DNA from: Chrysemys picta bellii
Lineage: Eukaryota
Direction: 5' to 3'
NCBI RefSeq assembly: GCF_011386835.1
Contig: NC_088795.1
Coordinates: 114,328,001 to 114,392,000, forward strand
DNA: 64,000 nt
In this document: positions 2,227 to 51,799 of the stretch, piece by piece
How the letters are laid out: each line of letters starts with the position of its first letter
How positions within the stretch are numbered: the stretch's first letter is position 1
The notes under the pieces: model-generated
Databases searched by the model: none
The model's input: the letters and a program-made list of their open reading frames with translations, nothing else
What the model was told of the DNA's origin: nothing
Position numbers and translations under genes: made by a program

Positions 2227-4174
2227 GTATGGTGATTCGTATATAGAGATTACATAGAATTGTAATTTGATATGGTTCTGGGGACAACTAAAGCAAAGTT
2301 TGCTCAGAAACCTGAGATGGGATTGCCACTTTATGTAAATATTTGTATATTTTATGATGCATGGAGATTAAAGAAATTATGGTACTATGAAGTACATTTT
2401 TAGAGGCAAGAAAATTTTCTAAGGGTTTTAAAATGTTTAAAAGTTATTTAAAGATTACATTAACTATACAAATAGTATCCTGCTACACAATGGAGACTCC
2501 TGTATTTGTTTTTGTGATTTTGCTTATTATTGATTTACATCAAATTGCAGTCACCATAACTATCCATATATTAAACACATTATTCATAGTATTCACTCAG
2601 TAGTCAGTGCAAGCTACGAATCTAATCCTATCCTAATTATAGTATACAGACTCAGTGTGTATCCAGTATTATGGAAGTTTTCCCATATAATGCCTTGAGT
2701 CAGGTTCCTGGTTATTTTAATCATAGATTGGAGGTGGGGAAAAGGAAATGGCTTGTAAACTTTTGAGGCTATGTAATTCATAGTATGTTTAAGAGCATAA
2801 AGGCAGTTTTTTGTTGTTGTGGGTTTTTCTCTCTCTCCTAGTCTAACAGAAGGTTCAGCCCAGGCCAGAGAAAAGGGTGTGAAGTCCCTGACGGCATAGT
2901 ATCCTAGCTGACCTGGCTCTGTTAACTCTTCATCTGTTGAGTCCAAACCCTTTGAACAATCAGGAAATATATCCCAAATCCCCCACTCTATGGCTCTGTA
3001 ACTGGTGTCAGCTGGAGGACCCTATATAGAGGTGCTGAGCTATTCTGTTGACCGCTCTGGTAGCCAGACCATGGGGGGCCTCAAGCCTTACACCCAGGAA
3101 TTAAGAGGTGGAGAGCCTCACTCAATATAGGTCTTCACTGCAGAACTGTGGTTCTTATTTGGGTGTTGCCTCACGTCCACACACAACCCTCTTACCCAAG
3201 TTTGGTGATGCTTTAAACCCAGGCTGGCTGGCCCATCTGGGGGTGTAGACTAGCCACTTTCATTCAGGCTGGTAACTTCCCTCTTTTGCAGGGTTGACAC
3301 AAGCTGAGCCATTCAAGTGCTGATGGTCTTCCAGTGTCTTCCCACAATTCCCCCTGTGTGCCCAGGACGACAAAGGAGTTGTCTTACAATTCAGTGGAAA
3401 AGAATTATTGAGTGGTTCAATTTACTGGAACACAAAGAACCACAAAGAACTCAGAGGTCCTAGCGACGCACACAGGAGAGTGCGCACAAGTGAGGACATG
3501 GTTACCCGGGTACGCCTTTGCAGTGTGGCTGCTCACACCCAGGCTAGACTAACACGGGTGCCAATCACCTGAGTTAACTCTGTAATGAAGACATACCCTT
3601 TGAGGCAAGAGCACACTCGAGAGAAGTAAGTGGTGCAGGGAGTAATCCCATTCCATCCATTCACAAGGGTGCTTGGGGACAAAAGCTGCAGTCCTCCTTT
3701 AGGACTTTGATACTTAAAGAATAAAGGCAAAACTCAGGAATAGAGTTAGTTTGGCAATATCCCTTATTTATGTACTATTAAGAGTGAGGTGGAGACACAA
3801 ACCATTAGAAAGCCCATATTATTATTTTGTACAGCAATTGGTTCTGCCCTAGTTTAAACCTTTATTCATGGCCGACTGAAGAAAGTCTTGACAAAACTAT
3901 AACCAGATCATTTGCAACAGGGATGGAGGGTCTTTGTAACTCTTACCACTAGAAATCAGATCCAGTGAGATGGAAAGAAAATTGCTGGCAACTGCAAGCT
4001 TATGATAAAGAAACTGCGGCAGAAAAGCTAACTGAAAAACGTAACATTTATTAACTTGGGGCATTACTATATCTCCCAGAACATATTGCAATTCAATCTT
4101 TGCAGATGTTGTTGTTAAAATAATACACAGTCTGATAAAATGCATAAATTATATTTTAACCTTCTGAATTACAG

Positions 4175-14002: not shown

Positions 14003-15344
14003 GACACAAGGAGGCCCTTGAAGAATTCCACCTGGATTTCAACAATTTCCACCCCACCATCAGCCTCAGCCTGGACCAGTCCACACAAGAGATCCACTTC
14101 CTGGACACTACAGTGCAAATGAGTGATGGTCACATAAACACCACCGTATACCAGAAACCTACTGACCGCTATACTTACCTACATGCCTCCAGCTTCCATC
14201 CAGGACAAATCACATGATCCATTGTCTACAGCCAAGTCCTAAGATACAACTGAATTTGCTCCAATCCCTCAGACAGAGACAAACATCTAAAAAGATCTTT
14301 ATCAAGCATTCTTAAAACTACAATACCCACACGCGGAAGTGAGGAAACAGATTGACAGAGCGAGACGGGTACCCAGAAATCACCTACTACAGAACAAGCC
14401 CAACAAGGAAAATAACAGAACACCACTGGCCATCGCGTACAGCCCCCAGCTAAAACATCTCCAGCACATTATCAACGATCTACAACCTATCCTGGAAAAT
14501 GATCCCTCACTCTCACAGACCTTTAGAAACAGGCCAGTCCTTGTTTACAGACAGCCCCCCAACCTGAAGCAAATACTCACCAGCAACTATACACCACACC
14601 ACAGAAACACTAACCCAGGAACCAATCCCTGTAGCAAACTCTGTTGCCTAATCTGTCCCCATATCTACTCTAGCGACACCATCAGAGGACCCAACCACAT
14701 CAGCCACACCATCAAGGGCTCATTCACCTGCACGTCTACTAATGTTATATATGCCATCATGTGCCAGCAATGCCCCTCTGCCATGTACATTGGCCAAACG
14801 GGACAGTCCCTACGTAAAAGAATAAATGGACACAAATCAGACATCAGGAATGGTAACATACAAAAGCCAGTAGGAGAACACTTCAATCTCCCTGGACATT
14901 CTATAACAGATTTAAAAGTAGCTATACTTGAGCAAAAAAACTTCAGAAACAGACTTCAAAGAGAAACAGCAGAACTAAAATTCATTTGCAAATTTAACAC
15001 CATTAATTTGGGCTTGAATAGGGACTGGGAGTGGCTGGCTCATTACAAAAGCAGCTTTGCCTCTCCTGGAATTGACACCTCTTCATCTATTATTGGGAGT
15101 GGACTACATCCACCCTGATCGAATTGGCCCTGTCAACACTGGTTCTCCACTTGTGAGGTAACTCCCTTCTCTTCATGTGTCATTATATAATGCTTGCATC
15201 TGTAATTTTCACTCCATGCATCTGAAGAAGTGAGGTTTTTTTACCCACAAAAGCTTATGCCCAAATAAATCTGTTAGTCTTTAAGGTGCCACTGGACTCC
15301 TTGTTGTTTTTGTGGATACAGACTAGTACGGCTACCCCCTGATA
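14003..15344 (+). mobile_element. 5'-truncated Penelope-like retroelement (RT C-terminus, linker, GIY-YIG endonuclease, pLTR)
   Basis: Translates as EEFHLDFNNFHPTI...IHFLDTTV...KPTDRYTYLHASSFHP, followed by the GIY-YIG region; 3' end ttagtctttaaggtgccactggactcc...ggctaccccctgata. Confidence 0.92.
14339..15118 (+). pseudogene. Open 3' part of the Penelope ORF: Cys/His linker plus GIY-YIG endonuclease
   Basis: CSKLCCLICPH linker; VIYAIMCQQCPSAMYIGQTGQSLRKRINGHKSDI motif; upstream RT part has in-frame TGA stops and a frameshift near 14290. Confidence 0.9.
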
Positions 15345-35700: not shown

Positions 35701-38276
35701 AACTGGCTGCTTGGGAAATTTTACATCCTACAGTAAGAAAAAAGATGCAATTTCCTTTTAGCTTTTGGGAAAGTATAAGGGCCAAATTTCACCACCTCTT
35801 CTGCAGATGGGCAAAAGGCAACTGAGTAAGGAACAATCACTGTACTCCACTCCAGAGTCCCCCAGAACTACTGGAGTTCCCAGTCCGCAAGTCCTTTGTA
35901 TCCAACACTTATACACTATTCTTTGGCACAGCTCCTAAAACTTAGTTTGATCAGATAGTCATTAACCTCACCATGAAACATCGCCAATAAATTGATTTTC
36001 TGGTCCCTGGCAAAGAAAATATGCAAACGGGGCTCTGCATGAAACTGCATCCAGGTTAGTTTCTGGGTCTGTATTAATGCAGCAAAAGCAGGATTCTTGT
36101 ACTCCTATTTTCACCCAGACTTCAGTCTAATGGGAATTATGGACAATGAGATTTTTGAAAACAACAGTTTAGGAGCAGATTTCAGCTATCCAGATGTAAA
36201 ACAGAACAAGCTATGTTTAAAGTATTGCTCAATATGACTTGTAAACTTGTGCATGACTGCTTCCCTCCATGATATGGAAGAAGGAGAAACAGGAAGGGAG
36301 TCGAGATGGGCCCGAGCTGTGAAGTTTGGATCCTCAAATATCAGGATTAATAGGAATCCAGGGATTTCGTTCAGATCATCTCTAGAGGGGAGAAATTCTT
36401 GGCTTAGTTTTCTCTGGCAGAAGATATGCCTGGTGTGGCATATGTAGCTTGACATTTTTGTGTTTTTTTTTCTTTTTGGGGGGATGGGAGAGTATTGCAA
36501 CTTTAAATGTCTGACAATTCACCTTGTACCCAGACAGAACCACCATTTTGTTATCAGAATTACTGCAGCCTGTTCAGAGGCAGTACATGGATTGTGCTCT
36601 AGCGTTCTTTTATGATTTTCTTATTGTTGTTTTCCTTACTCTAAAGTAAGTCATTCAGATTGAAAGCATCTGGCTGATCTTTCTCTAAGGAAATGGAACA
36701 ACTGGAAACATAACAGTGCAGAAGCAGCTAAGCAATAGATAGCTCTTTCATTTAAGATGCTAGCATTCTGCAGAGCAGTATTTGGAAAAACAAAGGGAAT
36801 GCCAAATGAAAATTAAATGGAGGGGGAGGGTGGAAAGAGGGAAGGAATAGGACGTGTTGAAAGATAAATGGCTATATGCCCAAGGGTTATGAGTGCCATC
36901 TAACAATAAATACACTAGGAGTTAAAAAGGTCACTGTGAATAAGAGAGTGCAAAAAGTAATCAAGGATTAGAAAGACGGACATGCATTGTGTAAAGAATG
37001 AGGTACTGGAGTTAAGGGTATAAGTACTGATAAGGAAATGCAAGCTGGAGAATGAAAGGCAGATTGCACAAGAGTTTCAAATGGTTGCATAATAAAATAT
37101 GCTACAAGAACATAAGGACAAAGAGGTCAGCGGGGAAGAGTGGAGCTGCTAAATGTGACAATGGTTGACATAAGGGGACGGATTCTTGGGTCTAGACAAA
37201 TTACAGACAGTGCAAATCAGGCTTCGAGTGCAAAGGTGGATAAAAGTTCCCCCTTGTATTCCCCTGCTCTTGGGGTGGTTGTGTGAAGGGTCAGGTGGAC
37301 TGCCTCAGAGTTGGGAGGATTCCAGCCTTTGGGGATCCATTGCTTTGGGGATCCATCCCAGACTGCCACATGGAACTGCCGCAAGGCCGCAGTTCCATTC
37401 CCTTTCAAATGGGATTTTTAAATTTTGGAGCTTTGTTCCCAATTGGAATTAAACCAGATGTCAAAATGTCAAAATCATCTCTGGAAGCAGAGTTACCTTT
37501 TTCTGTTCAGCTCTAATGATGATATTTGGCCAGACCAGGGGATAGTTTTAGAAATCTAGGATTCTAATTTATCATACCGAATGCTGATTCACTTGAATGA
37601 CAAATGGGCCTTAAAACTTCTGAAAAAACTAACTAAAAACCCCCTTCATCTGAGGAATTTATAGACATAATATTCTGTACTGGAAAGCTTTTGAGGTAGT
37701 ACTGCATATAATCAGAGTTGAGTGCATAAAGAACAAACTTTGAAACTTCACATTGAAAGTCCTTGTGGTTCATAGTGTAGATTGGAAGTTAAGTGACCCA
37801 GTGGTGTTTGTCCAAGATAGGCTTGGATTAATTTTGTTCACTTTATACATCAGTGACCAGAAGGAAGAAATATGCAAAAAGGTAGTACAGTTATTGATTA
37901 CCTGAAACAGAAGAAAGGTGGTGGAAAATACTTTGACATGCCAAAAAAAAAGAAAAGAAAACAAAAAAGATATCAAGTTTACATCAGGAAACGTGTCTAG
38001 CACTACATAAGGGAAATAAGAAAATGAGGTCACATTTAGAACTCTAATTTTATTGAGGAGAGTGCACAGACAACCTTAATTCTAGCATTTCCTAATTATA
38101 GAGTGTCACAGCCAGATCTAGTGGTCAGAGCCAGAGTCCACAGTCATGAGTTGAGAGTCAACTGGGCCAGGATACTAGGAGATCAGAAGCAGGAGACAAA
38201 CTTGAGATCAGAACCACAAGTCAGACACCAGGAGTCAAGCTGGCTTAGGATGCGAACAGGAGCAGGATGGCTCTCA

Positions 38277-38515
38277 GCAGGTACCTGGGGCGGCCATAGA
38301 AAGGGGCGGCAGTCCATCCGTTGTTGGGGTGGCACCTCCAGGTCTGTGGTGGCAATTCGGCGGCAGGTCCTTCAGTGCCTTGCTTCCACTTTGGCGGCAG
38401 CTCAATCACCCCACTTCAGTCTTCGGCGGCAATTCGGCAGCCGCTCAATCAGGTTTTTCCTTCTTTTTTTTTTTTTTCACTGCTTGGGGCGGCAAAAAAG
38501 CTGGAGCTGGCCCTG
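38277..38515. mobile_element. hAT-type GC-rich MITE (family of 48003-48258), 5' end degraded
   Basis: gcaattcggcggcagg repeats; ends aaaaaagctggagctggccctg. Confidence 0.65.
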
Positions 38516-39675
38516 CCATGGCGGAACCTCCAACTGGGCCTGAGCTTCATGGATCCTGGGTAAGCTAAATAAAGTTTAGTTTCATGCCTACTGCAATATT
38601 CTGGTCAACCCAAAACAGAAATTTTTCAAGGTTTTTAAAATGTTTTAAATTTGTAAAAAAGAAAATTGAAAGAAATTCTGAAACAAAATACCTTTCCAAA
38701 ATTGAATGTCAAAATGTGTTTCAGAAATGCTGAAATTGAACTCTTTTGACACTTCTGAATTTTTTCCCTTATTTTTTGGCTGAAATAATGAACCAAAATT
38801 GACTTCAATGTAGGGATGGTTTTGGTTGACCTGAAAGTTCGACCTTTTTAGTGAAAAAAGATTTTGCATGAAAAATATCTCTCACCTCTATCTGTATGTT
38901 TAGTTTATGAAATCTTCAGCATTGTCTGGGGCAGCAGCAGGGCACATATTGCAACTAAAGGTTTGAAAGACTTGCTCAGGACTTTGAAGGAAGCAATGAT
39001 AGAGAAGTACAACTGTGTCATGAAAGAAAAAGGCAAGACGTATAGTAAACAGGCTCTTTGACCTTTTTCCTTTTGAAATGTCTTATGTTTCTCTTTACCA
39101 GTGAGAATATGACAAACTCTGGCTTTTCCTATGAAAGCCTTCCCTGTTGCCAGCCCTCCCTTTCCTCAGTTATTGGGATTTGGTGTTATGCTCATTGGCT
39201 TGTGATGTGATGTAATCCCTAAAGTAAAGTTCAAATGGGGAGATTTTTTTTCTTGGTACAAAGGGAATATGGGGGAACAGAAGGAACAATCCTATGTAGA
39301 ATTCCTTTAAAGAACATTGTCTCTGTTTGGTATTAGATCACCTTTCTCTTGAAGAAAGGACCCTTCTATTAGTCCTATTCTACATATGATCCCAAGGCCT
39401 GGTGTGAAAAAGACAAATATGGCGGAAAAGAGACCAATGCAGTTTTCAGAGGCACCACAGAACAGAGCAAAGAGATGATAATCCCTCTCTATACTTTGAT
39501 GGAACAGTCACCCCTGGAATACTAGAGGGTGTTTGTGTAAATCAAGCTGAGGATGGAACCAAAGACTGAACAGACTAAGTATCATCCCTCCAAATACTCA
39601 GTGCAGATGGTCTCTTCTTCACGTGACTTTGGCTTCTTCAACACACACCGTTCCTCATGCCCAGGCCCTCCAGGA

Positions 39676-40026
39676 TCATGCAGTAGAGGCTCATGTACTA
39701 CGCTCCAGAGGTCCTAGGTTTGATCCTGCCCGCTGACAACCGGGGTCTCTCGGTGTTACAAGTCGGGGCTCGTCCGGGATTTGAACTGGGAAGTATCTGA
39801 AGCTTGGGATGCGCTAGGGGAAGTATGTAACCCACCCACCTCTCCTGAATGTGGTGTTTTGTTCCATCTAGTGGCACCGAAATCACTTAGAGAAAGAGAT
39901 CAATGAGTCTGCTCTACAGCCTTGGCTAATAGCCATGCGGCTTTTAGCTCATACAGTAGAGGCTCATGCACTAGGCTCCATAGGTCCCAGGTTAGATCCC
40001 GACAACCAGGGTCTGATGGTGTTAGA
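39676..40026 (+). mobile_element. Miniature LTR retroelement (TRIM-like): partial 5' LTR, PBS(tRNA-Pro), about 65 bp internal, PPT-like tract, full 3' LTR
   Basis: 39676-39760 repeats 39949-40026; 5' LTR ends gttaca; PBS tcggggctcgtccgggatttgaac at 39763-39786; aggggaagta precedes tgtaac at 39826. Confidence 0.75.
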
Positions 40027-40531
40027 CCAGTGTGGAGACACAGGACCTCTGTGTGAATGGCTTTTTGTCTCTGGCAATTCCCCAACATTCATGTGGCATA
40101 GGGGTTACTTCCATATGTGAATTTCTGTGTGTGCTTATAGGGAAGGGCAGCAGATCCCAGATCCCTTGAAGAAAAGGTCGAATGAAACCTTGCATGAAGA
40201 ACCTTATTGAGTTTTCATATGCCCCTGCCCTGGAGGCTTCACTGGGAGAAGGTACAGTTCTGCCCCTCCAATTGGCTGAACAGCTGACCATGCGACTTAG
40301 AAAATGTATAAAATTTGGCAGATAACATTTCTTCCAAAATAAAAAATTTGCACTTGGATCAAGTCATGTCAGGTTATGAGCTAAAACCTTATGTTCTAGT
40401 CACATATGATGGTGTGACGTGCTGCATCAGTGTCAGAAGTCTACACAAAGAGACCTACATCCCCAAAAGTTTGAGGAGATCCTTTATTGCTCTATCTCTG
40501 ACCTGTTTTAGTTTTGTTCTTGCCATTTTAG

Positions 40532-50356: not shown

Positions 50357-51643
50357 TAGATTCATAGATTCTAGGACTGGAAAGGACTTCGAGAGGTCAT
50401 CGAGTCCAGTCCCCTGCCCGCATGGCAGGACCAAATAATGTCTAGAAGACCATCCTTGAGAGACATTTATCTAACCTACTCTTAAATATCTCCAGAGATG
50501 GAGATTCCACAACCTCCCTAGGCAATTTATTCCAGTGTTTAACCACCCTGACAGTTAGGAACTTTTTCCTAATGCCCAACCTAAACCTCCCTTGCTGCAG
50601 TTTAAGCCCATTGCTTCTTGTTCTATCCTTAGAGGCTAAGATGAACAATTTTTCTCCCTCCTCCTTATGACCCCATTTTAGATACCTGAAAATTGCTATC
50701 ATGTCCCCTCTCAGTCTTCTCTTTTCCAAACTAAACAAACCCAATTCTTTCAGCCTTCCTTCATAGGTCATGTTCTCTAGACCTTTAAGCATTCTTGTTG
50801 CTCTTCTCTGTACCCTCTCCAATTTCTCCACATCTTCCTTGAAATGCGGTGCCCAGAACTGGACACAATACTCCAGTTGAGGCCCAACCAGCGCAGAGTA
50901 GAGCAGAAGAATGACTTCTCATGTCTTGCTCACAACACACCCTGTTAATGCATCCCAGAATCATGTTTGCTTTTTTTGCAACAACATCACACTGTTGACT
51001 CATATTTAGCTTGTGGTCCACTATAACCCCTAGGTCACTTTCTGCCGTACTCCTTCCTAGACAGTCTCTTCCCATTCTGTGTGTGTGAAACTGATTGTTC
51101 CTTCCTAAGTGGAGCACTTTGCATTTGTCTTTATTAAACTTCATCCTGTTTACCTCAGACCATTTCTCCAATTTGCCCAGATCATTTTGAATTATGACCC
51201 TATCCTCCAAAGCAGTTGCAATCCCTCCCAGTTTGGTATCATCTGCAAACTTAATAAGCGTACTTTCTATGCCAATATATAAGTTGTTGATGAAGATATT
51301 GAACAGAACCGGTCCCAAAACAGACCCCTGCGGAACCCCACTTGTTATACCTTTCCAGCTGGATTGGGAACCATTAATAACAACTCTCTGAGTACGGTTA
51401 TCCAGCCAGTTATGCACCCACCTTATAGTAGCCCCATCTAAGTTGTATTTTCCTAGTTTATTGATAAGAATATCATGTGAGACCATATCAAATGCCTTAC
51501 TAAAGTCTAGGTATACCACATCCACCGCTTCTCCATTATCCACAAGACTCGTTATCCTATCAAAGAAAGCTATCAGATTGGTTTGACATGATTTGTTCTT
51601 TACAAATCCACGCTGGCTATTCCCTATCACCTTCCCACCTTCC
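50357..51643 (-). mobile_element. Young 5'-truncated CR1 LINE (RT domain, C-terminus and 3' tail)
   Basis: ORF 50785-51645 has SQRGFVKNKSCQTNL, YLDFSKAFD, GVPQGSVLGP, KFADD; ORF 50442-50831 is the frameshifted C-terminus; tail repeat (aatctatg) at the 3' end; possible TSD atctta. Confidence 0.95.
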
Positions 51644-51799
51644 ATCTTAATAAGTTGTGTAATTTTTTTATTTTATTCTTATGCATTATTTGTTGAGCAC
51701 CAATCCTACGGGACTGTTTGGGTAAAACCCGGATGGCTGGCAACCCTACATATTACACCCCAACTATGTTCTCTCTTCCACAACTTAAGGAAATGAAAA

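What the first reader, a model, noticed from the sequence alone, without database searches (positions are those of the whole stretch)
39676..40026. TRIM-like miniature LTR element with a tRNA-like pol III promoter in its LTRs and an over-long tRNA-Pro primer site
Seen: a 201-bp LTR (tgtaac...gttaga, 39826-40026) and a partial upstream copy ending gttaca (39676-39760), separated by only 65 bp. That spacer starts with tcggggctcgtccgggatttgaac and ends in purine-rich aggggaagta. Established: the 3' end of vertebrate tRNA-Pro reverse-complements to TGGGGGCTCGTCCGGGATTTGAACCCGGG; the match here runs about 24 nt with one mismatch, beyond the usual 18. The LTR contains ttagctcatacagtagaggc (A-box-like) and ggttagatccc / ggtttgatcct (B-box-like). 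Inference: a non-autonomous LTR element that may be transcribed by pol III, analogous to plant Cassandra TRIMs, which carry 5S sequence. The 5' copy begins near the A box, about where such a transcript would start.
Basis: partly seen in the sequence, partly recalled or inferred. Interest (0 to 1): 0.7.

Follow-up and report, generated by a model that had tools for sequence, protein, structure and literature searches.

The report
Helenus-type tRNA-bearing mini-retrotransposon in a reptile
This is an old, damaged copy of a 480-base non-coding jumping element present in well over a thousand places in this reptile (likely turtle) genome, whose end-repeats carry a tRNA look-alike predicted to have served as its promoter; the type was described in 2024 as Helenus, and this is likely its first record in a land vertebrate.

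Summary
The window holds a 5'-truncated, decayed copy of a high-copy TRIM: LTRs about 205 bp (TGTAAC...GTTACA), a 74-bp internal part (tRNA-Pro primer site plus polypurine tract), 4-bp target duplications, many solo LTRs, LTR pairs about 15% diverged. The LTR carries a tRNA-like stretch with A and B boxes that does not score as a tRNA. This meets the definition of Helenus/TRIMp3 (Kojima 2024, PMC10886601), which lists no tetrapod and no vertebrate family with a Pro primer. The host is a sauropsid, likely a turtle. Added here: a strong TG-CWWG-CA target preference; a Gypsy family in the same genome with the same primer, termini, similar PPT and 4-bp duplication (likely helper type, too young to be the helper); and one T4 run at the A box, a possible pol III terminator. 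Pol III transcription is untested. The scan found Helenus-type elements before in other genomes. Repbase/Dfam could not be checked.

The parts
39670..39673 (+). CCAG, possible left target-site duplication, abutting the truncated LTR
   Evidence: same 4-mer as 40027-40030; a single locus, chance not excluded
39674..39760 (+). 5' LTR remnant (about LTR positions 122-205; predicted U5), with decayed B box at 39717-39727, ends GTTACA
   Evidence: truncation shared by contigs of other labelled organisms
39761..39825 (+). internal region, 65 bp (74 bp in the family)
39763..39780 (+). tRNA-Pro primer-binding site (17 of 18), 2 nt after the LTR; match runs on to 39786 in this copy
39813..39825 (+). 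polypurine tract region
   Evidence: 10 of 13 identical to the PPT region of the Gypsy element L164 (compared on copy L054)
39826..40026 (+). 3' LTR, 201 bp, terminal CA mutated to GA, 7-bp deletion after the B box
39939..40005 (+). tRNA-like stretch: T4 run 39942-39945, A box from 39945, B box 39990-40000, both decayed
40027..40030 (+). CCAG, right target-site duplication position
   Evidence: fits the family's CWWG-like target core only loosely

Best explanation
It is a truncated, decayed copy of an extinct high-copy Helenus-type TRIM that was likely transcribed by RNA polymerase III from the tRNA-like boxes in its 5' LTR and likely copied and inserted in trans by a Gypsy retrotransposon using tRNA-Pro as primer. 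Shown: architecture, copy number, 4-bp TSD, target preference, tRNA likeness, age. Inferred steps: pol III starts about 7 nt before the A box of the 5' LTR, passes the T4 run at +5 to +8 during initiation, reads U5, the 74-bp internal part and U3 (about 280 nt, no other T4 in most copies) and stops at the same T4 in the 3' LTR, leaving an R repeat of under about 10 nt, as described for Cassandra (18 bp). The RNA is packaged by a PNMA-gag Gypsy, primed by tRNA-Pro and the PPT, and integrated at TG-CWWG-CA sites. LTR-LTR recombination then left mostly solo LTRs.
For: 1497 exact LTR-end motif hits vs 19 for the reversed control. 30 of 30 loci picked by an internal motif have the LTR upstream; internal length 74 in 24 of 26 measured; 4-bp TSD perfect in 6 of 17 and within one mismatch in 13 of 17, none perfect at 5 or 6 bp; in the window-like sample 24 and 37 of 48. 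tRNA likeness: mean local score 47 against host tRNA-Cys vs 23.5 +/- 1.0 shuffled, 71 LTRs; A-to-B distance 45 nt in 44 of 77; B box intact in 42 of 90 and CpG-decayed in 20. AATAAA in 2 of 87 LTRs, TATAA in 4. T4 at the A box in 27 of 30 5' and 29 of 30 3' LTRs. Gypsy L164/L165: PNMA gag, RT, RNase H, integrase, exact Pro PBS, TGTAA...GTTACA ends, 4-bp TSD, right flanks C-W-W-R with A at +6 in 17 of 28. Kojima 2024 infers Gypsy helpers and 4-bp TSD for animal Helenus.
Against: No transcription data; even for published Helenus the promoter is unvalidated. Boxes are not better kept among copies than the rest of the LTR (minor-letter fraction A 0.093, B 0.050, rest 0.073); both boxes intact in only 7 of 124 LTRs, as expected of neutral decay but giving no support. 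The A box has an extra base against host tRNAs. Absence of other T4 runs (26 of 30) is weak: 47% of shuffles also lack one and the copies share one ancestor. Most published animal Helenus have only T3 at this place (by eye), so the terminator model may not generalise. No blastn similarity between a TRIM copy and the 5 candidate helper elements beyond E 0.94; L164's LTRs are 99.9% identical, far younger than the TRIM (median K 0.15); its flank preference is weaker (C at +5 in 11 of 28 vs 52 of 70). ERV-like elements with the same Pro PBS also exist here.
Confidence: 0.7

Rival explanations
1. Ordinary pol II TRIM or deleted ERV1 whose LTR passively carries a tRNA-SINE fragment; the boxes play no part in replication.
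For: tRNA-Pro PBS and 4-bp TSD are also typical of class I ERVs (recalled); ERV-like Pro-PBS elements are in this genome. No excess conservation of the boxes.
Against: No TATA or poly(A) signal in nearly all LTRs whereas the ERV LTR L166 has both; about 21 of the first 100 LTR ends listed are followed by the short Pro internal part and none by another primer site (by eye); ERV flanks show no C-W-W-G-C-A pattern (by eye, not counted); the tRNA-like part had no non-LTR hit in the 200-odd loci held (3 leftover hits are all LTR pieces); the 15-bp slip that removes half the A box is in one LTR only in 11 of 24 pairs and never in both, so it arose after insertion.
Confidence: 0.17
2. Pol III-driven Helenus, but mobilised by an ERV (class I) rather than a Gypsy.
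For: Three of five Pro-PBS clusters in 30 loci (15 loci) are not the Gypsy type; one has pol plus env.
Against: Termini, PPT region and flank preference resemble the Gypsy; ERV L166 starts TGTTGA and ends CTAACA.
Confidence: 0.1
3. The window structure is a one-off deletion of a long element, or a retroposed pol III transcript.
For: The window copy is 5'-truncated near the A box, with CCAG on both sides.
Against: The short internal part is the family norm; the 4 of 30 copies lacking a 3' LTR show no second LTR downstream in the same orientation and no pol in 10 kb; the copy keeps a whole 3' LTR, which a transcript would lack.
Confidence: 0.03

Closest known systems
Helenus (TRIMp3), animal families: LTR1_LCh/LTR2_Lch (coelacanth), LTR-11_DR (zebrafish), Helenus-1_CGi, Helenus-1_CVi, Helenus-1_TeGr (bivalves); Kojima 2024, PMC10886601 (read: whole main text, supplement parts 1, 5, 10, 11 of 11 and two searches)
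   Same: Two LTRs with a tRNA-like A/B-box stretch, PBS and PPT, no ORF, 4-bp TSD, solo LTRs and tandem units; size inside the 311-1263 bp range; LTR 205 bp like coelacanth (199) and fish (162-227). By eye: same TGTAAC...GTTACA ends as LTR-11_DR and a similar upstream motif (CTAGC/CTAC, short spacer, GCTAG/GCTAA, about 11 nt, CTTTAGC) in coelacanth, fish and oyster families; the turtle form is found in 73 of 87 LTRs.
   Different: Host is a sauropsid; Tables 1 and S1 list no tetrapod and the supplement has no hit for turtle names. Primer is tRNA-Pro, listed only for a bivalve family; vertebrate families use His, Leu, Lys. T4 rather than mostly T3 before the A box. Target preference not described in the paper. 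Family is old and apparently extinct.
Cassandra TRIMs of plants (PMC7215508, passages only; mechanism as summarised in PMC10886601)
   Same: Pol III promoter inside both LTRs, transcript predicted to start and end in the small-RNA part, short R, tandem arrays (one LTR-I-LTR-I-LTR here, L143/L144).
   Different: 5S-derived, plant, experimentally shown transcription; this one is tRNA-like and untested.
PNMA-gag Gypsy elements of this genome (L164, L165)
   Same: Exact Pro PBS, TGTAA...GTTACA ends, similar PPT region, 4-bp TSD with C-W-W-R core.
   Different: Autonomous, LTR over 1.4 kb with AATAAA, very young, no alignable sequence shared with the TRIM.

Membership tests
Helenus (TRIMp3) | TRIM under 1000 bp with two LTRs and no coding capacity | tested here: met
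   intact copies 423-506 bp, internal 74 bp
Helenus (TRIMp3) | tRNA-derived sequence in the LTRs with box A (TRGCY, YGG) and box B (GGTTC) | tested here: met
   (score 47 vs 23.5 shuffled; best tRNA-Cys, then Phe, Ala, of 29 distinct host tRNAs of 13 anticodon types, not the full set); intact A box 21 of 124, 33 more CpG-decayed; decayed in the window copy
Helenus (TRIMp3) | PBS complementary to a tRNA 3' end and PPT | tested here: met
   Pro PBS as in Fig S2C
Helenus (TRIMp3) | 4-bp TSD in animals | tested here: met
   24 of 48 and 6 of 17 perfect at 4 bp; 1 of 48 and 0 of 17 at 5 bp
Helenus (TRIMp3) | tRNA-like part is not a functional tRNA and not its own primer | tested here: met
   ARAGORN 0 calls at thresholds 100 and 90, mixed isotypes below; no Rfam tRNA hit; LTR part is Cys/Phe/Ala-like, PBS is Pro
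Helenus (TRIMp3) | Transcription by RNA polymerase III | not testable with these tools
   only contigs of guessed RNA runs available; also unvalidated in the paper
Helenus (TRIMp3) | Mobilised by Gypsy (animal families) | tested here: inconclusive
   shared PBS, ends, PPT, flank pattern with young Gypsy; no shared internal sequence, ages differ
Cassandra / Ajax | 5S rRNA-derived sequence in the LTR | tested here: not met
   no 5S hit in Rfam scans of the window stretch or 6 loci
Class I ERV (deleted provirus) | LTR shared with long gag-pol-env elements; pol II signals | tested here: not met
   no LTR similarity to 30 non-TRIM Pro-PBS loci (30 of 280); AATAAA 2 of 87; search was a sample, not exhaustive
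Catalogued turtle LTR family in Repbase/Dfam | sequence identity to an entry | not testable with these tools

The most novel reading that the evidence does not exclude
The first amniote branch of one ancient animal Helenus lineage shared with coelacanth, ostariophysan fish and bivalves (common upstream hairpin motif and termini), reached by descent over more than 400 million years or by aquatic horizontal transfer, which switched to a tRNA-Pro, PNMA-gag Gypsy helper with palindromic target choice, and whose single T4 run at the A box defines a pol III unit with an R repeat of under 10 nt, among the shortest proposed for an LTR element.
Probability: 0.3. Interest if true: 0.5.

Novelty: new member of a known kind. 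Interest (0 to 1): 0.32.

Why it matters
It extends pol III-type TRIMs to amniotes, adds thousands of tRNA-like boxes to a reptile genome (a source of mis-annotation and possible regulatory co-option), gives presence/absence markers for turtle phylogeny, and makes two open points of the Helenus model testable: where the transcript starts and ends, and which Gypsy lineage is the helper (target-site fingerprint).

Tried and rejected
ARAGORN and Rfam on the window and on 6 loci: no tRNA, no 5S, only sub-threshold hits outside the element. First tRNA-Pro pattern was one base too long and found only the window. Idea that reverse transcriptase read-through repairs position 21 to the tRNA letter: rejected, G in 1 of 100 listed (3 of 31 in the window-biased sample). 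Extended likeness of internal nt 19-36 to the tRNA-Pro complement: p 0.008 by shuffling on one copy, p 0.08 without the first two T, p 0.18-1.0 for six other Pro-PBS elements: suggestive only; the coelacanth Helenus shows a similar run-on by eye. Linkage between U3 and U5 subfamily markers to locate R: too few rows, inconclusive. Long-internal versions: none in 4 copies followed for 10 kb. Expression: no RNA holder listed; four guessed RNA runs hold family pieces of both U3 and U5 in contigs that often run into flanks, no verdict on pol III. Dating in years: no rate obtained from a paper (listing only), so only divergence is given. The Cassandra PNAS paper was not held, so its terminator position is cited second-hand. 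Not in print: searches Helenus+TRIM+tRNA+LTR, TRIM+turtle+tRNA (12), turtle+non-autonomous LTR+tRNA-derived+Gypsy (54), TRIMp3 (55), Gypsy target site+turtle (66), Helenus since 2024 (70, with passages of PMC12859917) gave no turtle record; listings only for the other papers.

Full report
Observation. The sequence is as described: an 87-bp LTR remnant (39674-39760), a 65-bp spacer beginning AG plus a tRNA-Pro primer site and ending in a purine tract, and a 201-bp LTR (39826-40026). The two LTR copies are about 80% alike. No tRNA or Rfam family is called on it.

Family. The genome is 2.37 Gb. The LTR has 1342 first-look candidates, 40 scored, at 81-85% identity; 27 of the 30 loci fetched have no spacer and look like solo LTRs. 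A junction query returned LTR-spacer-LTR copies in 30 of 30 loci. To avoid bias toward the window I took the first 30 of 118 hits of an internal motif (three repeat earlier loci, two are one tandem locus): all 30 have the LTR upstream, the internal part is 74 bp in 24 of 26 measured, and the target duplication is 4 bp (6 of 17 perfect, 13 of 17 within one mismatch, none perfect at 5 or 6). In the first 59 loci, 48 had both ends placed (two were mis-parsed and left out): 24 perfect and 37 near-perfect 4-bp duplications. An exact 16-nt LTR-end motif occurs 1497 times against 19 for its control; since about 28 of 49 sampled ends match such a motif, roughly 2,500-3,500 LTRs is my estimate. By eye about 21 of the first 100 are followed by the Pro-type internal part and none by another primer site, so solos outnumber two-LTR copies about three to one. 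LTR pairs differ by K2P 0.15 (median; 0.07-0.26; 28 of 32 pairs with at least 120 columns): the family is old and no young copy was seen. Subfamilies exist (one U3 marker agrees between both LTRs in 13 of 13 elements).

Host. At least 150 beta-keratin matches lie in two clusters on different contigs, so the host is a sauropsid. A second beta-keratin cluster outside the epidermal differentiation complex is reported as turtle-specific (PMC4760078, passages); I did not test its neighbours, so 'turtle' is likely, not shown. Contigs of four runs labelled as four other organisms carry the same insertion; three of them bridge the truncated left junction by 31 nt or more, so insertion and truncation predate their split.

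tRNA-like part. Against 29 distinct host tRNA genes of 13 anticodon types, 71 LTRs score best with tRNA-Cys (47 vs 23.5 shuffled), then Phe and Ala, so the source isotype is not settled. A-to-B distance is 45 nt in 44 of 77 (43 in host tRNA-Cys, counted by hand). It is not a tRNA (ARAGORN none at 100 or 90). Against the reading: the boxes are no better kept than the rest among copies, both are intact in 7 of 124 LTRs, and all are decayed in the window copy. For it: pol II signals are nearly absent, and a recurrent 15-bp slip that removes half the A box is found in one LTR only (11 of 24 pairs, never both), so it arose after insertion. A T4 run ends exactly at the first base of the A box (27 of 30 and 29 of 30) and the 271-nt stretch between the two runs lacks T4 in 26 of 30; this fits a Cassandra-like unit with a very short R but is statistically weak (47% of shuffles, one ancestor).

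Primer site. The window copy matches the host tRNA-Pro complement at 23 of 24 nt. The family matches 20 nt and then differs: position 21 is C in 94, T in 3, A in 2 and G in 1 (the window) of 100 listed hits (counted by eye). A looser likeness runs to about nt 36 (p 0.008; 0.08 without the first two T). So 'over-long' is partly a private mutation, partly a weak family trait, also seen by eye in coelacanth Helenus.

Helper. Insertions prefer a palindrome: T and G at -6 and -5 (45 and 41 of 67), G at the last duplicated base (42 of 70), C and A at +5 and +6 (52 and 51 of 70), p below 1e-9 each. Of 280 other exact Pro primer sites I examined 30: five clusters, none alignable to the TRIM. Two clusters (15 loci) are PNMA-gag Gypsy elements, one (10 loci) is an env-bearing ERV-like element, two were not classified. 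The Gypsy shares TGTAA...GTTACA ends, a 4-bp duplication, 10 of 13 PPT-region bases and a weaker version of the flank pattern (28 distinct flanks, T at +1 excluded by the pattern); the ERV does not by eye. But it is very young and shares no internal sequence, so it indicates the type of helper, not the helper.

This copy. Its 5' LTR lacks about the first 121 bp, which are not elsewhere in the window. CCAG flanks both ends, so either a deletion began at the LTR edge or an incomplete cDNA was integrated; one locus cannot tell. Other copies broken at LTR 117-136 carry a later insertion there, with the upstream part still present (L032, L153). It is not a transcript copy because the whole 3' LTR is present.

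Comparison. Kojima 2024 (PMC10886601) defines Helenus by exactly these features. All sequence-testable criteria are met; pol III transcription is untested there and here. The paper lists no tetrapod and no vertebrate Pro primer. By eye the termini and a small hairpin motif before the A box resemble the fish, coelacanth and oyster families; this was not computed. Parts 2-4 and 6-9 of the supplement were only searched, not read. Repbase and Dfam were not available, so the LTR may already be catalogued under a turtle name. Earlier notes of this scan report Helenus-type elements in fungi, a diatom and animals in other genomes, none by sequence or in this genome.

Verdict. Real, correctly read in outline, a new member of a known kind in a new host group. 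Interest 0.32.

Noticed in passing
L164 (G000:C1:18148500-18158400), L165 (G000:C1:43442700-43452600): Very young Gypsy elements with PNMA-type gag, tRNA-Pro primer and LTRs over 1.4 kb (99.9-100% identical); their LTR-end motif occurs 1206 times.
   Followed up: partly
L166 (G000:C1:1538000-1547900): Young env-bearing ERV-like family with Pro primer, 418-bp LTRs 98.8% identical; 89 LTR-end hits. Described only.
   Followed up: partly
L032, L042, L049, L057, L143, L153 (LTR positions about 129-136): The A-box region of the LTR is a hotspot for later insertions that look like hAT-type miniature transposons with about 8-bp duplications (label recalled, not tested).
   Followed up: no
L143/L144 (G000:C1:219116422-219119726): Tandem LTR-internal-LTR-internal-LTR unit, as known for Cassandra and LTR-11_DR.
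   Followed up: no
L199:101-483: A copy whose internal part stops at nt 42 and is followed by an inverted LTR.
   Followed up: no
window 14291-15115 (+) and 50788-51672 (-): Open frames with GIY-YIG (Penelope-like, recalled) and reverse transcriptase Pfam hits; unrelated to the finding.
   Followed up: no
window 38142-38515: GC-rich repeat with internal short direct repeats, also in other loci; probably a miniature DNA transposon.
   Followed up: no
G000:C1:4.19-5.17 Mb and G000:C20:22.75-23.58 Mb: Two large beta-keratin clusters, at least 150 matches.
   Followed up: partly
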